From: a virus
Lineage: Duplodnaviria; Heunggongvirae; Uroviricota; Caudoviricetes
Virus record (IMG/VR): IMGVR_UViG_2778261463_000010
Location: 1 to 15,679 of that record
Strand: one strand, 5' to 3'
DNA length: 15,679 nt
The notes under the pieces are model-generated. The model searched no databases. It was not told the DNA's origin and saw only the letters and a list, made by a program, of their open reading frames with translations. The position numbers and the translations under genes are program-made. Below, piece after piece: positions 4,785 to 8,396 of the stretch (position 1 is its first letter; every line of letters begins with the position of its first letter).

Positions 4785-5855
4785 TTATTTGATTTCAATT
4801 TTGTCCCACTCCCTGCCTCTGTCATCACGATACTGTGATGCCATGGTGTCCGACTTATGCCCGAGAAGATGTTGAGCAAATTTATCGCTTATCTGCTTCT
4901 CATAGAGTCTTGCAGACAAACTGCGCAACTCGTGAAAGGTTGGCGGATCCCCTTCGAAGGAGAGACCTGATGCTTTTCGTGCGCGCATAAAATACCTTGA
5001 TACTGTGCCGGATGAAAGCGGTTCACGACGAGTAGATGCAATTATGGTTTCTCCGCCAAGAATCTTTTTGCATTTATCAAGTGTTTCCTTCATTGATATC
5101 CCGAGAGCATCAACATGCAATGTTGTTGGGATGGCAATTTTTACGCCTGTTTTGCTTTGCTCGACATAAAGATATCCATCTACGATATCAGACCACTTCA
5201 TTTCGCATAAATCACCAACTCGCTGCCCGGTAACAACAGCCAGTTCCATTGCAAGTCTAAGCCAACATGGTGATGATTCTGCTGCTTGATAAATTTTCAG
5301 GTATTCGTCAGCCGTAAGTCTTGATCTCCTTACCTCTGATTTTGCAGCGCGAGTGGCTGCGACCGGGTTTGTTGTTATATGGCCTTCAGCCATAGCCTCT
5401 CGGAATGCATCGCTCAGTGTTGATCTGATTAACTTGGCTGATGCCGCCTTTCCCTCGTCTATGTATCCATTGAGCATTGCCGCAATTTCTTTTGTGGTGA
5501 TGTCTTCAAGTGGAGCATCAGGCAGACCCCTCCTTATTGCTTTAATTTTGCTCATGTAATTTATGAGTGTCTTCTGCTTGATTCCTCTGCTGGCCAGGAT
5601 TTTTTCGTAGCGATCAAGCCATGAATGTAACGTAACGGAATTATCACTGTTGATTCTCGCTGTCAGAGGCTTGTGTTTGTGTCCTGAAAATAACTCAATG
5701 TTGGCCTGTATAGCTTCAGTGATTGCGATTCGCCTGTCTCGGCCTAATCCAAACTCTTTACCCGTCCTTGGGTCCCTGTAGCAGTAATATCCATTGTTTC
5801 TTATATAAAGGTTAGGGGGTAAATCCCGGCGCTCATGACTTCGCCTTCTTCCCAT
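4785..5855 (-). CDS. int: Lambda-type tyrosine integrase Int (356 aa)
   Basis: Translation MGRRRSHERRDLPPNLYIRNNGYYCYRDPRTGKEF...REWDKIEIK is essentially the recalled lambda Int, with the catalytic C-terminal HxxR...Y region present. Confidence 0.97.
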   Translation of the reverse strand: MGRRRSHERRDLPPNLYIRNNGYYCYRDPRTGKEFGLGRDRRIAITEAIQANIELFSGHKHKPLTARINSDNSVTLHSWLDRYEKILASRGIKQKTLINYMSKIKAIRRGLPDAPLEDITTKEIAAMLNGYIDEGKAASAKLIRSTLSDAFREAMAEGHITTNPVAATRAAKSEVRRSRLTADEYLKIYQAAESSPCWLRLAMELAVVTGQRVGDLCEMKWSDIVDGYLYVEQSKTGVKIAIPTTLHVDALGISMKETLDKCKKILGGETIIASTRREPLSSGTVSRYFMRARKASGLSFEGDPPTFHELRSLSARLYEKQISDKFAQHLLGHKSDTMASQYRDDRGREWDKIEIK

Positions 5856-5949
5856 TTCTGATCCTCTTCAAAAGGCTACCTGTTACTGGTCGATTTAAGT
5901 CAACCTTTACCGCTGATTCGTGGAACAGATATTCTCTTCCATCCTTAAC
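5833..5949 (-). pseudogene. xis: 3' remnant of excisionase gene xis (about the last 38 codons); 5' half replaced
   Basis: Minus strand encodes ...VKDGREYLFHESAVKVDLNRPVTGGLLKRIRNGKKAKS*, overlapping the int start as in lambda. Reading upstream, an in-frame TAG occurs with no start codon, and the sequence diverges from lambda beyond about 5949. Confidence 0.8.
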
Positions 5950-6123
5950 GCAGATCGGATGATTACCGGTTCGCTACCAGGGAAGAACGGGAAGGAAAGG
6001 TGAGCACGAATCTGATTTTCAAGGAGTGTCGCCAGAGTGCCGCGATGAAGCGGATGTTGGCATTTTATCGCGGCAATTTTCAATAGACTATGTACATAAA
6101 AATATCATTTTTTTAATACATGT

Positions 6124-6315
6124 CTAATTATTGGACGAAATTGGTTTTTGCTTTGGTTTAGTTAGCCTAGCAATCAAGCCAGAGGCAATAATGATGATCC
6201 AAGCAATTTGATGCAATGCTACTCCAATATAAGAACCTTTATAGATAATAAAGGCATAGATCGCTAGAAACGAAATAAATATCCATAACGAAAGTTGATA
6301 AATTTTGGCGCGCAT
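6124..6315 (-). CDS. Hypothetical small membrane protein (63 aa, two predicted TM helices, basic C-terminus)
   Basis: ORF MRAKIYQLSLWIFISFLAIYAFIIYKGSYIGVALHQIAWIIIIASGLIARLTKPKQKPISSNN. Two hydrophobic stretches. No clear Shine-Dalgarno. Lies in the AT-rich island, divergent from the lipoprotein operon. Confidence 0.45.
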   Translation of the reverse strand: MRAKIYQLSLWIFISFLAIYAFIIYKGSYIGVALHQIAWIIIIASGLIARLTKPKQKPISSNN

Positions 6316-6571
6316 ATTTAATCCAATCAATCAGAAAGACGAGTAATCATAGAGGTACTATCACCCGGGTAACTATTGCTATTATGAACGGATAGGATAG
6401 AGGCTTCAATAACATATGCATCAAGTATGATGGAATATGTAGGTGAAAATGACTTGTGTCAAATTTGTGGAAATGAGTACCATGTTTCTCTGAAATTGAT
6501 GTCGTTAATGGCTAGTGATAGTGAACTTTTTTACTTTATAATTCCTTTGGTTATAACAATAAGGTAAATTT

Positions 6572-7132
6572 ATGAAGAAGATAATATTATTAGCCATGAT
6601 TATTGGTTCTTTAACAGGTTGCGCTAGTGTGCCACCATTGAATTTTTCAACACCTAACGTGGGAGTTAGCCAGAAAAAAATAGATGCTGAAATTAAGTCA
6701 TTAACGGTATCACTTGCTCGTCCAGATGAGCAGAAAGGGGATATCACTGCTGGTATGGAGGCTATAACTCCAATTTGGCGTGAATCTTTGCAGGAAGCAC
6801 TCGACCGAATGACTATTTTTCGTGATAGTTCACCAAATACGGTTAGCTTAAATGTTAAAGTGTTGGCTCTTGACGTTCCTGCTTTTGGTGTTTCAATGAC
6901 AACTAAAGCAATTGCAAGGTATGAAATAATCAACCGTGCGAATGGTGATATTATATATACGCAGGATATTGAGTCTACCGGTACTGTTCCAGCCAGTTAC
7001 GCATTCTACGGTATTGTTCGAGCACGCGAATCTGTTAATCGCGCGGTGCAAAACAACATAACGCAGTTCTTGCAAGCATTAGAAAGTGTTGATCTTTCTC
7101 GTCCAATGTTTCCTGTTAGGGTAGCTAAATGA
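6572..7132 (+). CDS. Hypothetical lipoprotein (186 aa), first gene of a two-gene operon
   Basis: Signal peptide MKKIILLAMIIGSLTGC with lipobox LTGC. AAGG 6 nt upstream of the ATG. AT-rich codon usage. Stop overlaps the next start (ATGA). Confidence 0.8.
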   Translation: MKKIILLAMIIGSLTGCASVPPLNFSTPNVGVSQKKIDAEIKSLTVSLARPDEQKGDITAGMEAITPIWRESLQEALDRMTIFRDSSPNTVSLNVKVLALDVPAFGVSMTTKAIARYEIINRANGDIIYTQDIESTGTVPASYAFYGIVRARESVNRAVQNNITQFLQALESVDLSRPMFPVRVAK

Positions 7133-7635
7133 AGCGATTATTCGTAATTGCTCCACTCTTAGTGTTGGTTGGATGCGCACAAAATATATCGCCAAATAGT
7201 TATTCTGTTGGCTCTGTGGGCATGGTTAATCGAACTATCGCTGGTACAGTTATTAGTGCTAGGGGGGTTGATATCAGTGGGACTTCCGCGTTAGGCGGGA
7301 CTGCTGGGGCTGCCGTGGGGGCAACCGCTGGTTCTGCGCTTGGTGGGGGAGTTCGTTCTAATATCGTTGGTGCCGTTGGTGGTGCAGTCATTGGTGGTAT
7401 TGCCGGGGCAGCAATCGAATCTTCAGCAACAAAACAAACAGGCATGGAATATGTTGTCGAAACTGAGAATGGGAATTTAATGACCATTGTTCAAGGCAAA
7501 GATCCGTTATTTACTCAAGGAAGTAAGGTCCTTGTTTTATACGGAAACCCTTCTCGCATAATAACAGACCGCGTCACTAACATACCTTTTGATTTTGTAA
7601 AATCAATTCGTAATAATAAAGTCATCGGAGCTTGA
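7129..7635 (+). CDS. SlyB/Pcp-like glycine-zipper outer-membrane lipoprotein (168 aa)
   Basis: Lipobox LVGC. Gly/Ala zipper GTSALGGTAGAAVGATAGSALGGG...GAVGGAVIGGIAGAAI followed by a beta-rich C-terminal segment (NGNLMTIVQGKD...SKVLVLYGNP). This matches the domain order I recall for SlyB. Start overlaps the upstream stop. Confidence 0.8.
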   Translation: MKRLFVIAPLLVLVGCAQNISPNSYSVGSVGMVNRTIAGTVISARGVDISGTSALGGTAGAAVGATAGSALGGGVRSNIVGAVGGAVIGGIAGAAIESSATKQTGMEYVVETENGNLMTIVQGKDPLFTQGSKVLVLYGNPSRIITDRVTNIPFDFVKSIRNNKVIGA

Positions 7636-7770
7636 ACAACTCCGGTGACTTCTGCGCTAAACGGGGACGTTTATGCGCACATACAATCCAAACTCTCTTC
7701 TCCCTTCACAGATGCAGAAATGCACCTGCGATTTTTTGCATCCAGCGTCTGACCTCTGCGGAGGTGAAGC

Positions 7771-8226
7771 GTGAACCTACCACAAGATGGCATCAAACTG
7801 CATCGCGGTAACTTCACCGCTATCGGCCAGCAGATCCAGCCTTATCTGGAGGACGGAAAATGCTTTCGCATGGTGCTTAAACCGTGGCGTGAGAAACGCA
7901 GTCTTTCCCAGAATGCACTCAGCCACATGTGGTACAGCGAAATCAGTGAATACCTCATCAGCAGGGGGAAATCGTTCGCTACCGCAGCATGGGTAAAAGA
8001 TGCTCTCAAACACACATACCTCGGTTATGAAACCAAGGACCTGGTTGATGTCGTAACCGGCGAAATCACTACTATCCAGTCGTTACGCCATACCTCCGAT
8101 CTTGATACCGGAGAGATGTATATCTTCCTGTGTAAGGTTGAAGCCTGGGCGGTGAATATTGGCTGCCACCTGACTATTCCGCAGAGCTGCGAGTTCCAGC
8201 AGCTCCGCGACAAACAGGAGGCGTAA
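7771..8226 (+). CDS. ybcN: NinB-family protein (YbcN-like, 151 aa)
   Basis: GTG start with GGAGGTG upstream. Shares the RSLxQN motif with lambda NinB. Gene order matches DLP12 ybcN-ninE-ybcO-rusA. Confidence 0.85.
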
Positions 8227-8396
8227 TGGCTACACCGCTTATTCGTGTCATGAACGGACACATCTACAGAGTACCAAATCGTCGTAAGCGTAAACCGGAG
8301 CTGAAGCCTTCCGAAATACCAACACTGCTCGGATATACCGCCAGCCTGGTTGATAAAAAATGGTTGCGACTGGCAGCAAGGAGGAGTCATGGCTGA
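8226..8396 (+). CDS. ninE: NinE-family protein (56 aa)
   Basis: ATG overlaps the ybcN stop (TAATG). Basic RRKRKP...WLRL pattern as in lambda NinE. Below the ORF-track length cutoff. Confidence 0.7.
   Translation: MATPLIRVMNGHIYRVPNRRKRKPELKPSEIPTLLGYTASLVDKKWLRLAARRSHG

What the first reader, a model, noticed from the sequence alone, without database searches (positions are those of the whole stretch)
6124..6315. Divergent small two-helix membrane protein beside the lipoprotein operon
A 63-aa ORF with two hydrophobic helices and a Lys/Arg-rich tail is transcribed divergently from the lipoprotein operon across a 240-bp AT-rich intergenic region. Size and topology resemble small phage injection-blocking proteins (T4 Imm-like) or small membrane toxins. 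It could act with the lipoproteins. Its translation signals are weak, so it may not be expressed.
Basis: inference. Interest (0 to 1): 0.5.

Follow-up and report, generated by a model that had tools for sequence, protein, structure and literature searches.

The report
Orphan prophage small membrane-protein gene
The 63-codon reading frame is a real gene under purifying selection for a tiny two-helix inner-membrane protein that lambda-like prophages of E. coli, Klebsiella and Enterobacter carry backwards between their replication and nin genes; it is not tied to the neighbouring lipoproteins and its function is untested.

Summary
The ORF at 6124-6315 (- strand, 63 aa) exists as described. Its length alone is not beyond chance: 9% of shuffles of the spacer give an ORF this long.

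An exhaustive HMMER search found a very small family of 59-63 aa homologues at 37-52% identity. They share the start M-R-A-K and a Y-x-G-V-x-L-H-Q motif. Substitutions are mostly synonymous (dN/dS 0.11 for the one unsaturated pair), so the frame is translated.

AlphaFold and hydropathy give a helical hairpin with basic ends, most simply read as N-in/C-in.

Every prophage copy lies at the replication/nin junction, on the strand opposite the early-right operon. Non-E. coli copies have a GC-rich hairpin right after the stop codon. They sit beside a DNA polymerase III theta (HOT-like) gene, not lipoproteins. The lipoprotein pair occurs elsewhere without this ORF, so the proposed partnership is not supported.

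There is no relationship to T4 Imm (hhalign probability 0.9%) or to any Pfam, NCBIfam, PHROG, PADLOC or PDB family.

Best reading: an autonomous moron expressed from the prophage. It probably acts on a membrane partner, with superinfection exclusion as the leading guess. That function is inferred, not shown.

The parts
6124..6315 (-). Coding sequence of a 63-aa small membrane protein (MRAK...SSNN), stop codon included. It folds as a helical hairpin: helix 1 about residues 3-26, turn K26-G27-S28, helix 2 about residues 30-52, then a basic disordered tail. The conserved motif is Y29-x-G31-V32-x-L34-H35-Q36-x-x-W39.
   Evidence: ORF. Homologues at 37-52% identity. Alignments. dN/dS 0.11-0.27. Structure model. 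Hydropathy and charge.
6316..6571 (.). A 256-bp AT-rich divergent intergenic region. It holds two - strand sigma-70-like sites that could drive the small gene: 6462->6434 (TTGACA-17-CATATT) and 6409->6381 (TTGAAG-17-CATAAT). It also holds one + strand site, 6515-6542 (GTGATA-16-TATAAT), placed to drive the lipoprotein operon. The weak Shine-Dalgarno GGA is at 6322-6324.
   Evidence: Promoter scan: 4 sites against 3.3 expected, so not above chance. Sequence. G+C 0.32-0.35. No Rfam family.
6087..6123 (.). A 37-bp spacer between the convergent stop codons of the ren fragment and the small gene. It has only a weak AT-rich hairpin (-4.9 kcal/mol) and no canonical intrinsic terminator. The orthologous position in all non-E. 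coli copies holds a GC-rich hairpin. A T-run here varies by one base between E. coli strains, outside the ORF.
6001..6086 (+). The 3' fragment of the phage ren gene. It marks the end of the replication module and is the left boundary of the low-GC island. It is a flank, not part of the gene.
   Evidence: RefSeq annotation of identical DNA.
6572..7635 (+). The neighbouring two-gene lipoprotein cassette. It comprises a YajG-like lipoprotein of 186 aa (6572-7132) and a glycine-zipper lipoprotein (7129-7635). This is context only, because the evidence argues against a functional tie to the small gene.

Best explanation
The ORF is a genuine protein-coding gene for a 63-aa inner-membrane helical hairpin. 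Its two transmembrane helices are joined by a 3-residue turn, and both ends are basic. The simplest reading is that both ends are cytoplasmic and the conserved Y-x-G-V-x-L-H-Q motif sits at the periplasm-proximal start of helix 2.

It belongs to a very small orphan family confined to Enterobacteriaceae. The gene behaves as an autonomous moron. It occupies one fixed slot in lambda-like prophages, the junction between the replication module and the nin genes. It always lies on the strand opposite the early-right (pR) operon, whatever genes flank it.

The following is inferred, not shown. In a lysogen it is transcribed from its own promoter while pR is silent, and translated at a low level from a weak Shine-Dalgarno. 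During lytic growth it is opposed by antisense pR read-through. Once in the cytoplasmic membrane it binds a membrane-embedded partner through the conserved motif.

My leading guess for the outcome is superinfection exclusion at the DNA-entry step, functionally like HK97 gp15, T4 Imm or P22 SieA but unrelated to them in sequence. It works independently of the adjacent lipoprotein pair.

Rough confidence by step:
- real translated gene: about 0.9
- independent moron not tied to the lipoproteins: about 0.75
- expressed from the prophage: about 0.6
- exclusion or defence as the function: about 0.3
For: **Shown**
1. Homologues.
   - The exhaustive phmmer search of 1.84 billion representatives gave 3 hits, with E-values 2e-14 to 6e-6 at 37-50% identity.
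   - A profile search and a viral-contig scan added P0129, P0130 and L040-L046.
   - All are 59-63 aa and co-linear, with the same start and a basic tail.
2. Purifying selection.
   - L009 against L016 shows 17 synonymous and 8 non-synonymous differences (pS 0.40, pN 0.06, dN/dS 0.11).
   - In the other pairs synonymous sites are saturated (pS 0.68-0.86), while pN is 0.24-0.48.
3. DNA similarity between the window and the homologous loci is confined to the coding sequence.
4. Fixed slot and orientation.
   - The gene sits between O/P/ren and ybcN-ninE-ybcO-rusA-Q here and in phage PhiR30_1.
   - In the homologous loci it sits between O/P, O/DnaB or O/DnaC-like modules and DUF1367/NinB-YbcO-RusA/NinG-Q. 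It is always antisense to them.
5. Moron hallmarks.
   - G+C is 0.32-0.36 against 0.47-0.51 in the flanks.
   - The island is present in 280 of the 3845 records that match this 1951-bp stretch.
   - A GC-rich hairpin (helix of 7-10 pairs; -15 to -22 kcal/mol for the folded 70-nt flank) begins 0-6 nt after the stop in every non-E. coli prophage copy examined. Three of these are followed by a T-tract.
   - A TATAAT box and a GAGAC box are conserved upstream.
6. The hairpin structure and the charge distribution.

**From the literature**
[quoted passage not shown] HK97 gp15 is a small inner-membrane exclusion protein (PMC3594210).
- Placement antisense to the lytic genes is described as characteristic of accessory loci expressed in lysogens (PMC7067206).
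- A cryptic-prophage small protein, DicB, can protect against phage through inner-membrane receptor proteins (abstract of PMC6832061, as listed).

**Inference**
- Conserved polar residues inside helix 2 suggest a specific partner rather than non-specific membrane damage.
Against: - No expression data of any kind were available.
- Promoter-like sites in the window are no more frequent than in shuffles.
- The window copy lacks a recognisable terminator.
- The Shine-Dalgarno is weak.
- RefSeq/PGAP leaves the ORF unannotated in every row listed for the 280 complete E. coli genomes.
- The function rests on analogy only. No family, structure or defence-system model matches.
- The family is very rare. 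It is in 1 of 50,697 phage records and 1 of 185,579 species-representative genomes. That is odd for a broadly useful exclusion gene.
- One homologue (L015) sits on a short metagenomic contig next to mlaFE-like transporter genes, with no phage genes visible.
- All non-E. coli prophage copies are tightly paired (56-71 bp) with a pol III theta gene. This could mean a link to that gene that I cannot explain.
Confidence: 0.5

Rival explanations
1. The protein is a membrane-active toxin. This could be a type I toxin-antitoxin-like peptide, a GhoT-like two-helix toxin, or an abortive-infection or addiction effector. It would oligomerise in the inner membrane and dissipate the proton-motive force. A weak Shine-Dalgarno and antisense transcription would keep it low.
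For: - It is a small, very hydrophobic hairpin with basic ends.
- Weak translation signals are conserved across the family.
- Antisense pR read-through would give a natural antisense RNA in intact phages. This follows from the gene order.
- One member (P0130) gives a sub-threshold hit to a PADLOC '4TM effector' model, E 1.8e-4.
Against: - No match to Hok/Gef, Ldr, TisB, GhoT or any other Pfam toxin family.
- The PADLOC hit is seen in 1 of 6 members only.
- No Rfam sRNA and no + strand promoter-like site lie within or beside the ORF.
- Upstream spacers of only 56-71 bp in the orthologues leave no room for the long structured 5' UTR typical of type I toxins.
- There is a single copy per genome.
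- The copy in this window is intact, although the pR region that would supply antisense RNA is deleted.
- The conserved polar motif points to a specific contact.
Confidence: 0.2
2. The small protein is a third component of an envelope system, working with the two adjacent lipoproteins. An inner-membrane anchor or regulator would act with two outer-membrane or periplasmic lipoproteins from a shared divergent control region.
For: - In E. coli the ORF and the lipoprotein pair always co-occur, in 280 of 280 genomes.
- They share a 256-bp divergent intergenic region and a low G+C.
Against: - The E. coli island is essentially one sequence: 279 of 280 copies are at least 99% identical. Co-occurrence is therefore a single event.
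- Diverged homologues of the ORF never have the lipoproteins.
- Diverged lipoprotein cassettes never have the ORF. tblastn and blastn found nothing in L004-L007.
- In L005 there is only 130 bp upstream of the cassette.
Confidence: 0.07
3. The protein has a lytic-cycle or replication-linked role. It could be a pinholin- or antiholin-like membrane protein. Alternatively it could act together with the neighbouring pol III theta (HOT-like) gene.
For: - The topology equals that of class II holins: two transmembrane domains, N-in/C-in, and a charged C-terminal tail. The class II holin description is from my own knowledge; the topology here is.
- There is a tight, conserved divergent pairing with theta in all non-E. 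coli prophage copies, across saturated synonymous divergence.
Against: - The gene is not in the lysis cassette. That cassette (S-R-Rz, 11.5-12.7 kb) is complete elsewhere in the window.
- It is antisense to the early-right operon.
- No holin family matches.
- The E. coli copy has no theta gene or theta remnant beside it.
Confidence: 0.08
4. It is not a gene. It would be a chance hydrophobic ORF on the T-rich strand of an AT-rich promoter spacer.
For: - ORF length is not significant: 438 of 5000 shuffles reach it.
- The Shine-Dalgarno is weak.
- It is unannotated in RefSeq.
- Within E. coli there is too little variation to test the frame.
Against: - Co-linear homologues at 37-52% identity lie in unrelated flanking DNA.
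- dN/dS is 0.11-0.27.
- Start and stop positions are conserved.
Confidence: 0.04

Closest known systems
HK97 gp15 (YebO-family moron, inner-membrane superinfection-exclusion protein)
   Same: - It is a small inner-membrane protein encoded by a moron in a lambda-like phage.
- It is inserted between conserved backbone genes.
- It has relatives in bacterial chromosomes (PMC3594210). Compare L015 here.
   Different: - There is no sequence relationship: no Pfam hit, YebO included.
- gp15 sits in the tail operon in the sense orientation. This gene sits at the replication/nin junction in the antisense orientation.
- No exclusion phenotype has been tested here.
T4 Imm (83 aa, immunity to superinfection membrane protein)
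   Same: It is a small, predicted two-helix cytoplasmic-membrane protein of a phage (annotation, sequence).
   Different: - hhalign probability is 0.9% over 7 columns.
- There is no Pfam match and no BFVD structural match.
- Imm belongs to a virulent phage and is made early in infection, not from a prophage (my own knowledge).
GhoT/OrtT and type I toxins (Hok/Gef, Ldr, TisB, ZorO)
   Same: These are small hydrophobic membrane peptides. GhoT is likewise about 57 aa with two helices (my own knowledge). They often lie in prophages and are translated weakly.
   Different: - No family match.
- No antitoxin RNA or protein partner was detected.
- There is a single copy per genome.
- The upstream region is short in the orthologues.
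Class II holins / pinholins (e.g. phage 21 S21)
   Same: The size class and topology match: two transmembrane domains, N-in/C-in, and a basic C-terminal tail (my own knowledge).
   Different: - It lies outside the lysis cassette and on the opposite strand.
- No holin family match.
- A separate S-R-Rz cassette is present.

Membership tests
T4 Imm superinfection-immunity family | Sequence or profile homology to T4 Imm | tested here: not met
   hhalign of the family profile against T4 Imm gives probability 0.9% over 7 aligned columns. No Pfam family was reported for any member at E up to 10.
T4 Imm superinfection-immunity family | Small cytoplasmic-membrane protein with two hydrophobic helices | tested here: met
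   AlphaFold2 gives helices 3-26 and 30-52. Hydropathy peaks are 2.6 and 2.2. This is a resemblance of topology only.
T4 Imm superinfection-immunity family | Blocks DNA entry of superinfecting phage | not testable with these tools
   Needs plating-efficiency and DNA-entry assays.
Moron (Juhala et al. 2000; Cumby et al. 2012, PMC3594210) | Extra DNA between backbone genes, present in some related phages and absent from others | tested here: met
   The island lies between ren and ybcN. Of the 3845 E. coli records that match the 1951-bp query (window 5850-7800), 280 carry the island. Lambda itself has ren followed directly by ninB (my own knowledge).
Moron (Juhala et al. 2000; Cumby et al. 2012, PMC3594210) | G+C content different from the surrounding genes | tested here: met
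   G+C is 0.32-0.36 over 6000-6600, against 0.47 (5700-5999) and 0.51 (7650-8250).
Moron (Juhala et al. 2000; Cumby et al. 2012, PMC3594210) | Own promoter | tested here: inconclusive
   Two - strand sigma-70-like sites lie upstream, but the count is not above shuffles. A TATAAT box is conserved in L009 and L016. The orientation opposite to pR means it cannot be expressed from the phage early-right promoter.
Moron (Juhala et al. 2000; Cumby et al. 2012, PMC3594210) | Own terminator | tested here: inconclusive
   This is met in the orthologues. A GC-rich hairpin begins 0-6 nt after the stop in L009, L016, L017, L018, L040, L041 and L046, and a T-tract follows in L009, L016 and L040. It is not met in the window copy, which has only a -4.9 kcal/mol AT hairpin.
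Moron (Juhala et al. 2000; Cumby et al. 2012, PMC3594210) | Expressed from the repressed prophage | not testable with these tools
   No transcriptome or ribosome-profiling data were accessible.
Type I toxin-antitoxin toxins | Membership of a known toxin family (Hok/Gef, Ldr, TisB, Ibs, ShoB, ZorO and others) | tested here: not met
   No Pfam or NCBIfam hit.
Type I toxin-antitoxin toxins | Cognate antisense or adjacent small RNA | tested here: inconclusive
   There is no Rfam match at E up to 5 that is credible, and no + strand promoter-like site within or beside the ORF. A novel sRNA cannot be excluded.
Class II holin / pinholin | Located in the lysis cassette next to the endolysin | tested here: not met
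   The lysis genes essD-rrrD-rzpD lie about 5 kb away on the other strand. No holin family matches.
HK97 gp15 / YebO family | Sequence homology to YebO/gp15 | tested here: not met
   No Pfam or PHROG match beyond E of about 0.1 to an unnamed PHROG in one member only.

The most novel reading that the evidence does not exclude
The gene may found a previously unrecognised family of prophage-encoded two-helix inner-membrane proteins. The family holds a dedicated antisense slot at the replication/nin junction of lambda-like phages of Enterobacteriaceae. It would confer a lysogen phenotype by engaging a specific inner-membrane host protein through the conserved Y-x-G-V-x-L-H-Q motif. That phenotype would be either a block to phage DNA entry or a regulated membrane toxin.
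Probability: 0.3. Interest if true: 0.5.

Novelty: new member of a known kind. Interest (0 to 1): 0.38.

Why it matters
**Annotation.** The gene is carried by about 5% of complete E. coli genomes, including the enteroaggregative reference strain 042. RefSeq leaves it unannotated in all the records examined. It shows how small membrane proteins in prophages escape annotation.

**Phage biology.** It marks a conserved antisense slot at the replication/nin boundary of lambda-like phages. If it proves to be an exclusion or membrane-active protein, it would add a new sequence family to the short list of small inner-membrane phage-resistance proteins. It would also be a compact 63-aa tool for probing phage DNA entry.

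**Caveat.** The kind of element, a moron encoding a small membrane protein, is well known. The interest is therefore moderate.

Tried and rejected
- **Conservation within E. coli.** The 280 copies are at least 95% identical and 279 are at least 99% identical. The three-strain alignment gave one non-synonymous change in the ORF and one indel outside it. This was uninformative.
- **Word-indexed protein search with the single sequence.** It found only E. coli near-identical clusters. The exhaustive HMMER search was needed to find homologues.
- **Looking for the ORF beside diverged lipoprotein cassettes.** tblastn and blastn on L004-L007 found nothing.
- **Family libraries.** Pfam, NCBIfam, PHROGs and PADLOC gave nothing at or near threshold. 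The sub-threshold hits were SdpI at E 0.05-0.14 in 3 members and a PADLOC 4TM effector in 1 member. I judge these to be driven by transmembrane composition.
- **PDB sequence profile search.** It returned only PsbI-type single helices at E of 0.25 or more.
- **Foldseek against viral structures.** Nothing better than E = 7.
- **Rfam on the region.** Only chance-level hits.
- **Theta-gene remnant in the E. coli spacer.** None found.
- **Literature search for phage PhiR30_1.** Nothing relevant.
- **Look-up of P0128.** No contig on record.
- **Genome-collection scan with the six-sequence alignment.** It failed for lack of a conserved stretch. The five-sequence alignment found only one Enterobacter MAG.

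Full report
**Setting**

The window is E. coli chromosome beside ybhC. It carries a decayed lambda-type prophage. In order, it contains:
- int (4785-5855, - strand) and a C-terminal xis fragment;
- a large deletion, then the last 86 bases of ren (6001-6086, + strand);
- a low-GC island;
- the nin genes ybcN/ninB, ninE, ybcO, rusA and ylcG, then Q;
- a porin gene, the lysis cassette and bor.

The island contains the ORF in question (6124-6315, - strand). It also contains two lipoprotein genes on the + strand (6572-7132 and 7129-7635).

**Checking the observation**

It runs from ATG at 6315 to TAG at 6126-6124 and encodes 63 aa.
- The alternative TTG start at 6330 is not used. Every homologue begins M-R/Q-A/V-K at the position of the ATG.
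- There are two hydrophobic segments, a +2 N-terminus and a +4 tail.
- AlphaFold2 on the six-sequence family alignment gives helix 3-26, turn 27-29, helix 30-52 and a disordered tail, with pLDDT 72.
- The intergenic distance to the lipoprotein ATG is 256 bp at about 32-35% G+C.
- The Shine-Dalgarno is only GGA, 6 nt upstream.
- ORF length alone proves nothing. In 5000 dinucleotide-preserving shuffles of the 485-bp spacer, 438 contain an ATG-ORF this long.
- Promoter-like hexamers are no more frequent than chance.

**Is it a gene?**

E. coli alone cannot answer this.
- The 485-bp spacer is present once per genome in 280 of 5426 complete genomes.
- In 279 of these it is at least 99% identical.
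- RefSeq annotates nothing there in any listed row.
- A three-strain alignment shows one non-synonymous change in the ORF and one indel outside it.
- Some GenBank assemblies, and phage PhiR30_1, call the ORF a hypothetical protein.

The word-indexed search found only near-identical E. coli clusters. The exhaustive HMMER search of 1.84 billion cluster representatives found three diverged relatives:

| Protein | Length | Identity | E-value |
|---|---|---|---|
| P0126 | 60 aa | 50% | 2e-14 |
| P0127 | 75 aa | 49% | 1e-6 |
| P0128 | 63 aa | 37% | 6e-6 |

A profile search and a viral-contig scan added P0129, P0130 and seven further loci, L040-L046.

All are co-linear and 59-63 aa from the conserved start. 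They share M1, K4, Y29, G31, V32 and L34. Y20, H35, Q36, W39 and S45 are nearly invariant.

A Nei-Gojobori count on the codon alignment shows purifying selection.
- The only unsaturated pair, L009 against L016, has 17 synonymous and 8 non-synonymous differences (pS 0.40, pN 0.06, dN/dS 0.11).
- In all other pairs synonymous sites are saturated (pS 0.68-0.86), while pN is 0.24-0.48.

Nucleotide similarity between the window and these loci begins 4 bases before the ATG and ends inside the ORF. The frame is therefore constrained as protein.

**Context of the homologues**

Every prophage copy lies between the replication module and the nin genes, on the strand opposite to them.
- The replication modules differ: O/P, O/DnaB-type helicase, or O/DnaC-like.
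- The nin genes are DUF1367 or NinB, NinE, YbcO, RusA or NinG, and Q.

The window and the intact phage PhiR30_1 have the same arrangement.

In all non-E. coli prophage copies, the gene across the 56-71 bp divergent spacer is a DNA polymerase III theta (HOT-like) gene (PF06440, E 3e-34 in L041). It is never a lipoprotein.

One homologue sits on a 2.8-kb metagenomic contig next to mlaE/mlaF-like genes.

**The lipoprotein pair**

The pair is a separate mobile cassette.
- It has more than 500 homologues, including members from Klebsiella oxytoca, Edaphovirga, Bordetella, Xanthomonas and Lysobacter.
- In K. oxytoca it lies between chromosomal genes.
- In another phage it lies between the tape-measure and minor-tail genes, with only 130 bp upstream.
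- It is also present in Edaphovirga.
- None of these loci has the small ORF or any similarity to the E. coli spacer.

The proposed partnership is therefore not supported. The perfect co-occurrence in E. coli reflects one nearly clonal island.

**Transcription-unit features**

In all seven non-E. coli prophage loci examined, a GC-rich hairpin (helix of 7-10 pairs) begins 0-6 nt after the stop codon, and the folded 70-nt flanks give -15 to -22 kcal/mol. In L009, L016 and L040 it is followed by a T-tract, as in an intrinsic terminator.

L009 and L016 share a perfect TATAAT about 33 nt upstream of the ATG. All seven share GAGAC 5-6 nt upstream of the ATG, which is a weak GAG-type Shine-Dalgarno.

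The E. coli copy differs.
- It has GGA in place of GAGAC.
- It has two candidate - strand promoters, 6462->6434 and 6409->6381.
- It has only a weak AT-rich hairpin after its stop.

These features match the published description of a moron: deviant G+C, presence or absence among related phages, its own terminator, and placement antisense to the lytic operon (PMC3594210). Antisense placement is described as characteristic of accessory loci transcribed in lysogens (PMC7067206).

**Comparison with known families**

| Library or comparison | Result |
|---|---|
| Pfam, NCBIfam, PHROGs | Nothing near threshold for any member |
| PADLOC | One sub-threshold hit, in one member |
| PDB sequence profile | Only PsbI-type single helices, E 0.25 or more |
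| Foldseek, viral structures | Nothing better than E = 7 |
| hhalign against T4 Imm (taken from the T4 record) | Probability 0.9% over 7 columns |
| Rfam on the region | No credible RNA |

So the ORF resembles Imm, HK97 gp15, GhoT and class II holins only in size and topology. It is a member of none.

**Distribution**

The family is narrow and rare.
- About 5% of complete E. coli genomes.
- Some Klebsiella pneumoniae and Klebsiella sp. assemblies.
- One Enterobacter MAG among 185,579 species-representative genomes.
- One of 50,697 phage records.

**How it most likely works**

Shown:
- a translated small protein that is predicted, not demonstrated, to form a transmembrane helical hairpin;
- an independent unit at a fixed antisense slot;
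- no tie to the lipoproteins.

Inferred:
- transcription from its own promoter in the lysogen, when pR is off;
- low translation;
- insertion with both basic ends in the cytoplasm;
- the conserved Y-x-G-V-x-L-H-Q motif at the periplasm-proximal start of helix 2 contacting a specific membrane partner.

I rank superinfection exclusion or defence first, at about 0.3. Three things favour it: the genomic logic, precedents such as HK97 gp15 and P22 SieA, and the conserved polar motif, which suggests a specific contact.

A membrane toxin comes second, at about 0.2. It is disfavoured by the absence of an antitoxin signal, the short upstream regions, the single copy per genome, and the intact state of the gene in a remnant that has lost pR.

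A role linked to the theta gene or to lysis, a lipoprotein partnership, and a non-gene are minor rivals.

**Verdict**

The element is an orphan family of a familiar kind, a moron-encoded small membrane protein. It is of moderate interest until a phenotype is shown.

Noticed in passing
window 7129-7635 (+), around 7569: The glycine-zipper lipoprotein is 168 aa here but 150 aa in other E. coli copies. A 1-bp deletion in a CCC run shifts the frame a few codons before the normal stop and adds an 18-aa extension.
   Followed up: partly
window 6572-7635 (+); loci L004, L005/L006, L007: The lipoprotein pair is a mobile two-gene cassette. It is found in the Klebsiella oxytoca chromosome, between the tape-measure and minor-tail genes of another phage, and in Edaphovirga. 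It has more than 500 homologues, including Xanthomonadales and Alcaligenaceae. Databases often call the first gene 'UDP-N-acetylglucosamine acyltransferase', a name that no family search here supports.
   Followed up: partly
window 5832-6086: The prophage is a nested-deletion remnant. After int comes a C-terminal xis fragment (- strand, read by eye). Next comes the same exonuclease/ren deletion junction seen in other strains (L001), then only the last 86 bases of ren. None of the 25 listed matches to window 5850-7800 began before base 97 of the query (window 5946).
   Followed up: partly
window 6427-6567 (+): A 46-aa ORF (MMEYVGENDLCQICGNEYH...) ends 5 nt before the lipoprotein ATG. It has been called on more than 600 contigs in public data but never named. 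The best + strand promoter-like site (6515-6542) lies inside it, so it is probably not a gene.
   Followed up: partly
L009 3672-3929, L016 3673-3930, L017 743-991, L018 3687-3935, L041 3693-3944: All non-E. coli prophage homologues of the small gene are divergently paired with a DNA polymerase III theta (HOT-like) gene. The spacers are 56-71 bp, and the pairing holds across synonymous-site saturation. The reason for this tight pairing is unexplained.
   Followed up: partly
L002 (E. coli 042), between ren and the lipoprotein gene: RefSeq locus tags jump from FVF73_RS03880 to RS03890 across the unannotated spacer that holds the small ORF. A feature may once have been called there and later dropped.
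   Followed up: no
protein P0004 (85 aa, an E. coli genome): One E. coli variant matches the small protein up to residue R51 and then continues with unrelated sequence. This suggests an insertion or rearrangement at the 3' end of the gene in that strain.
   Followed up: no
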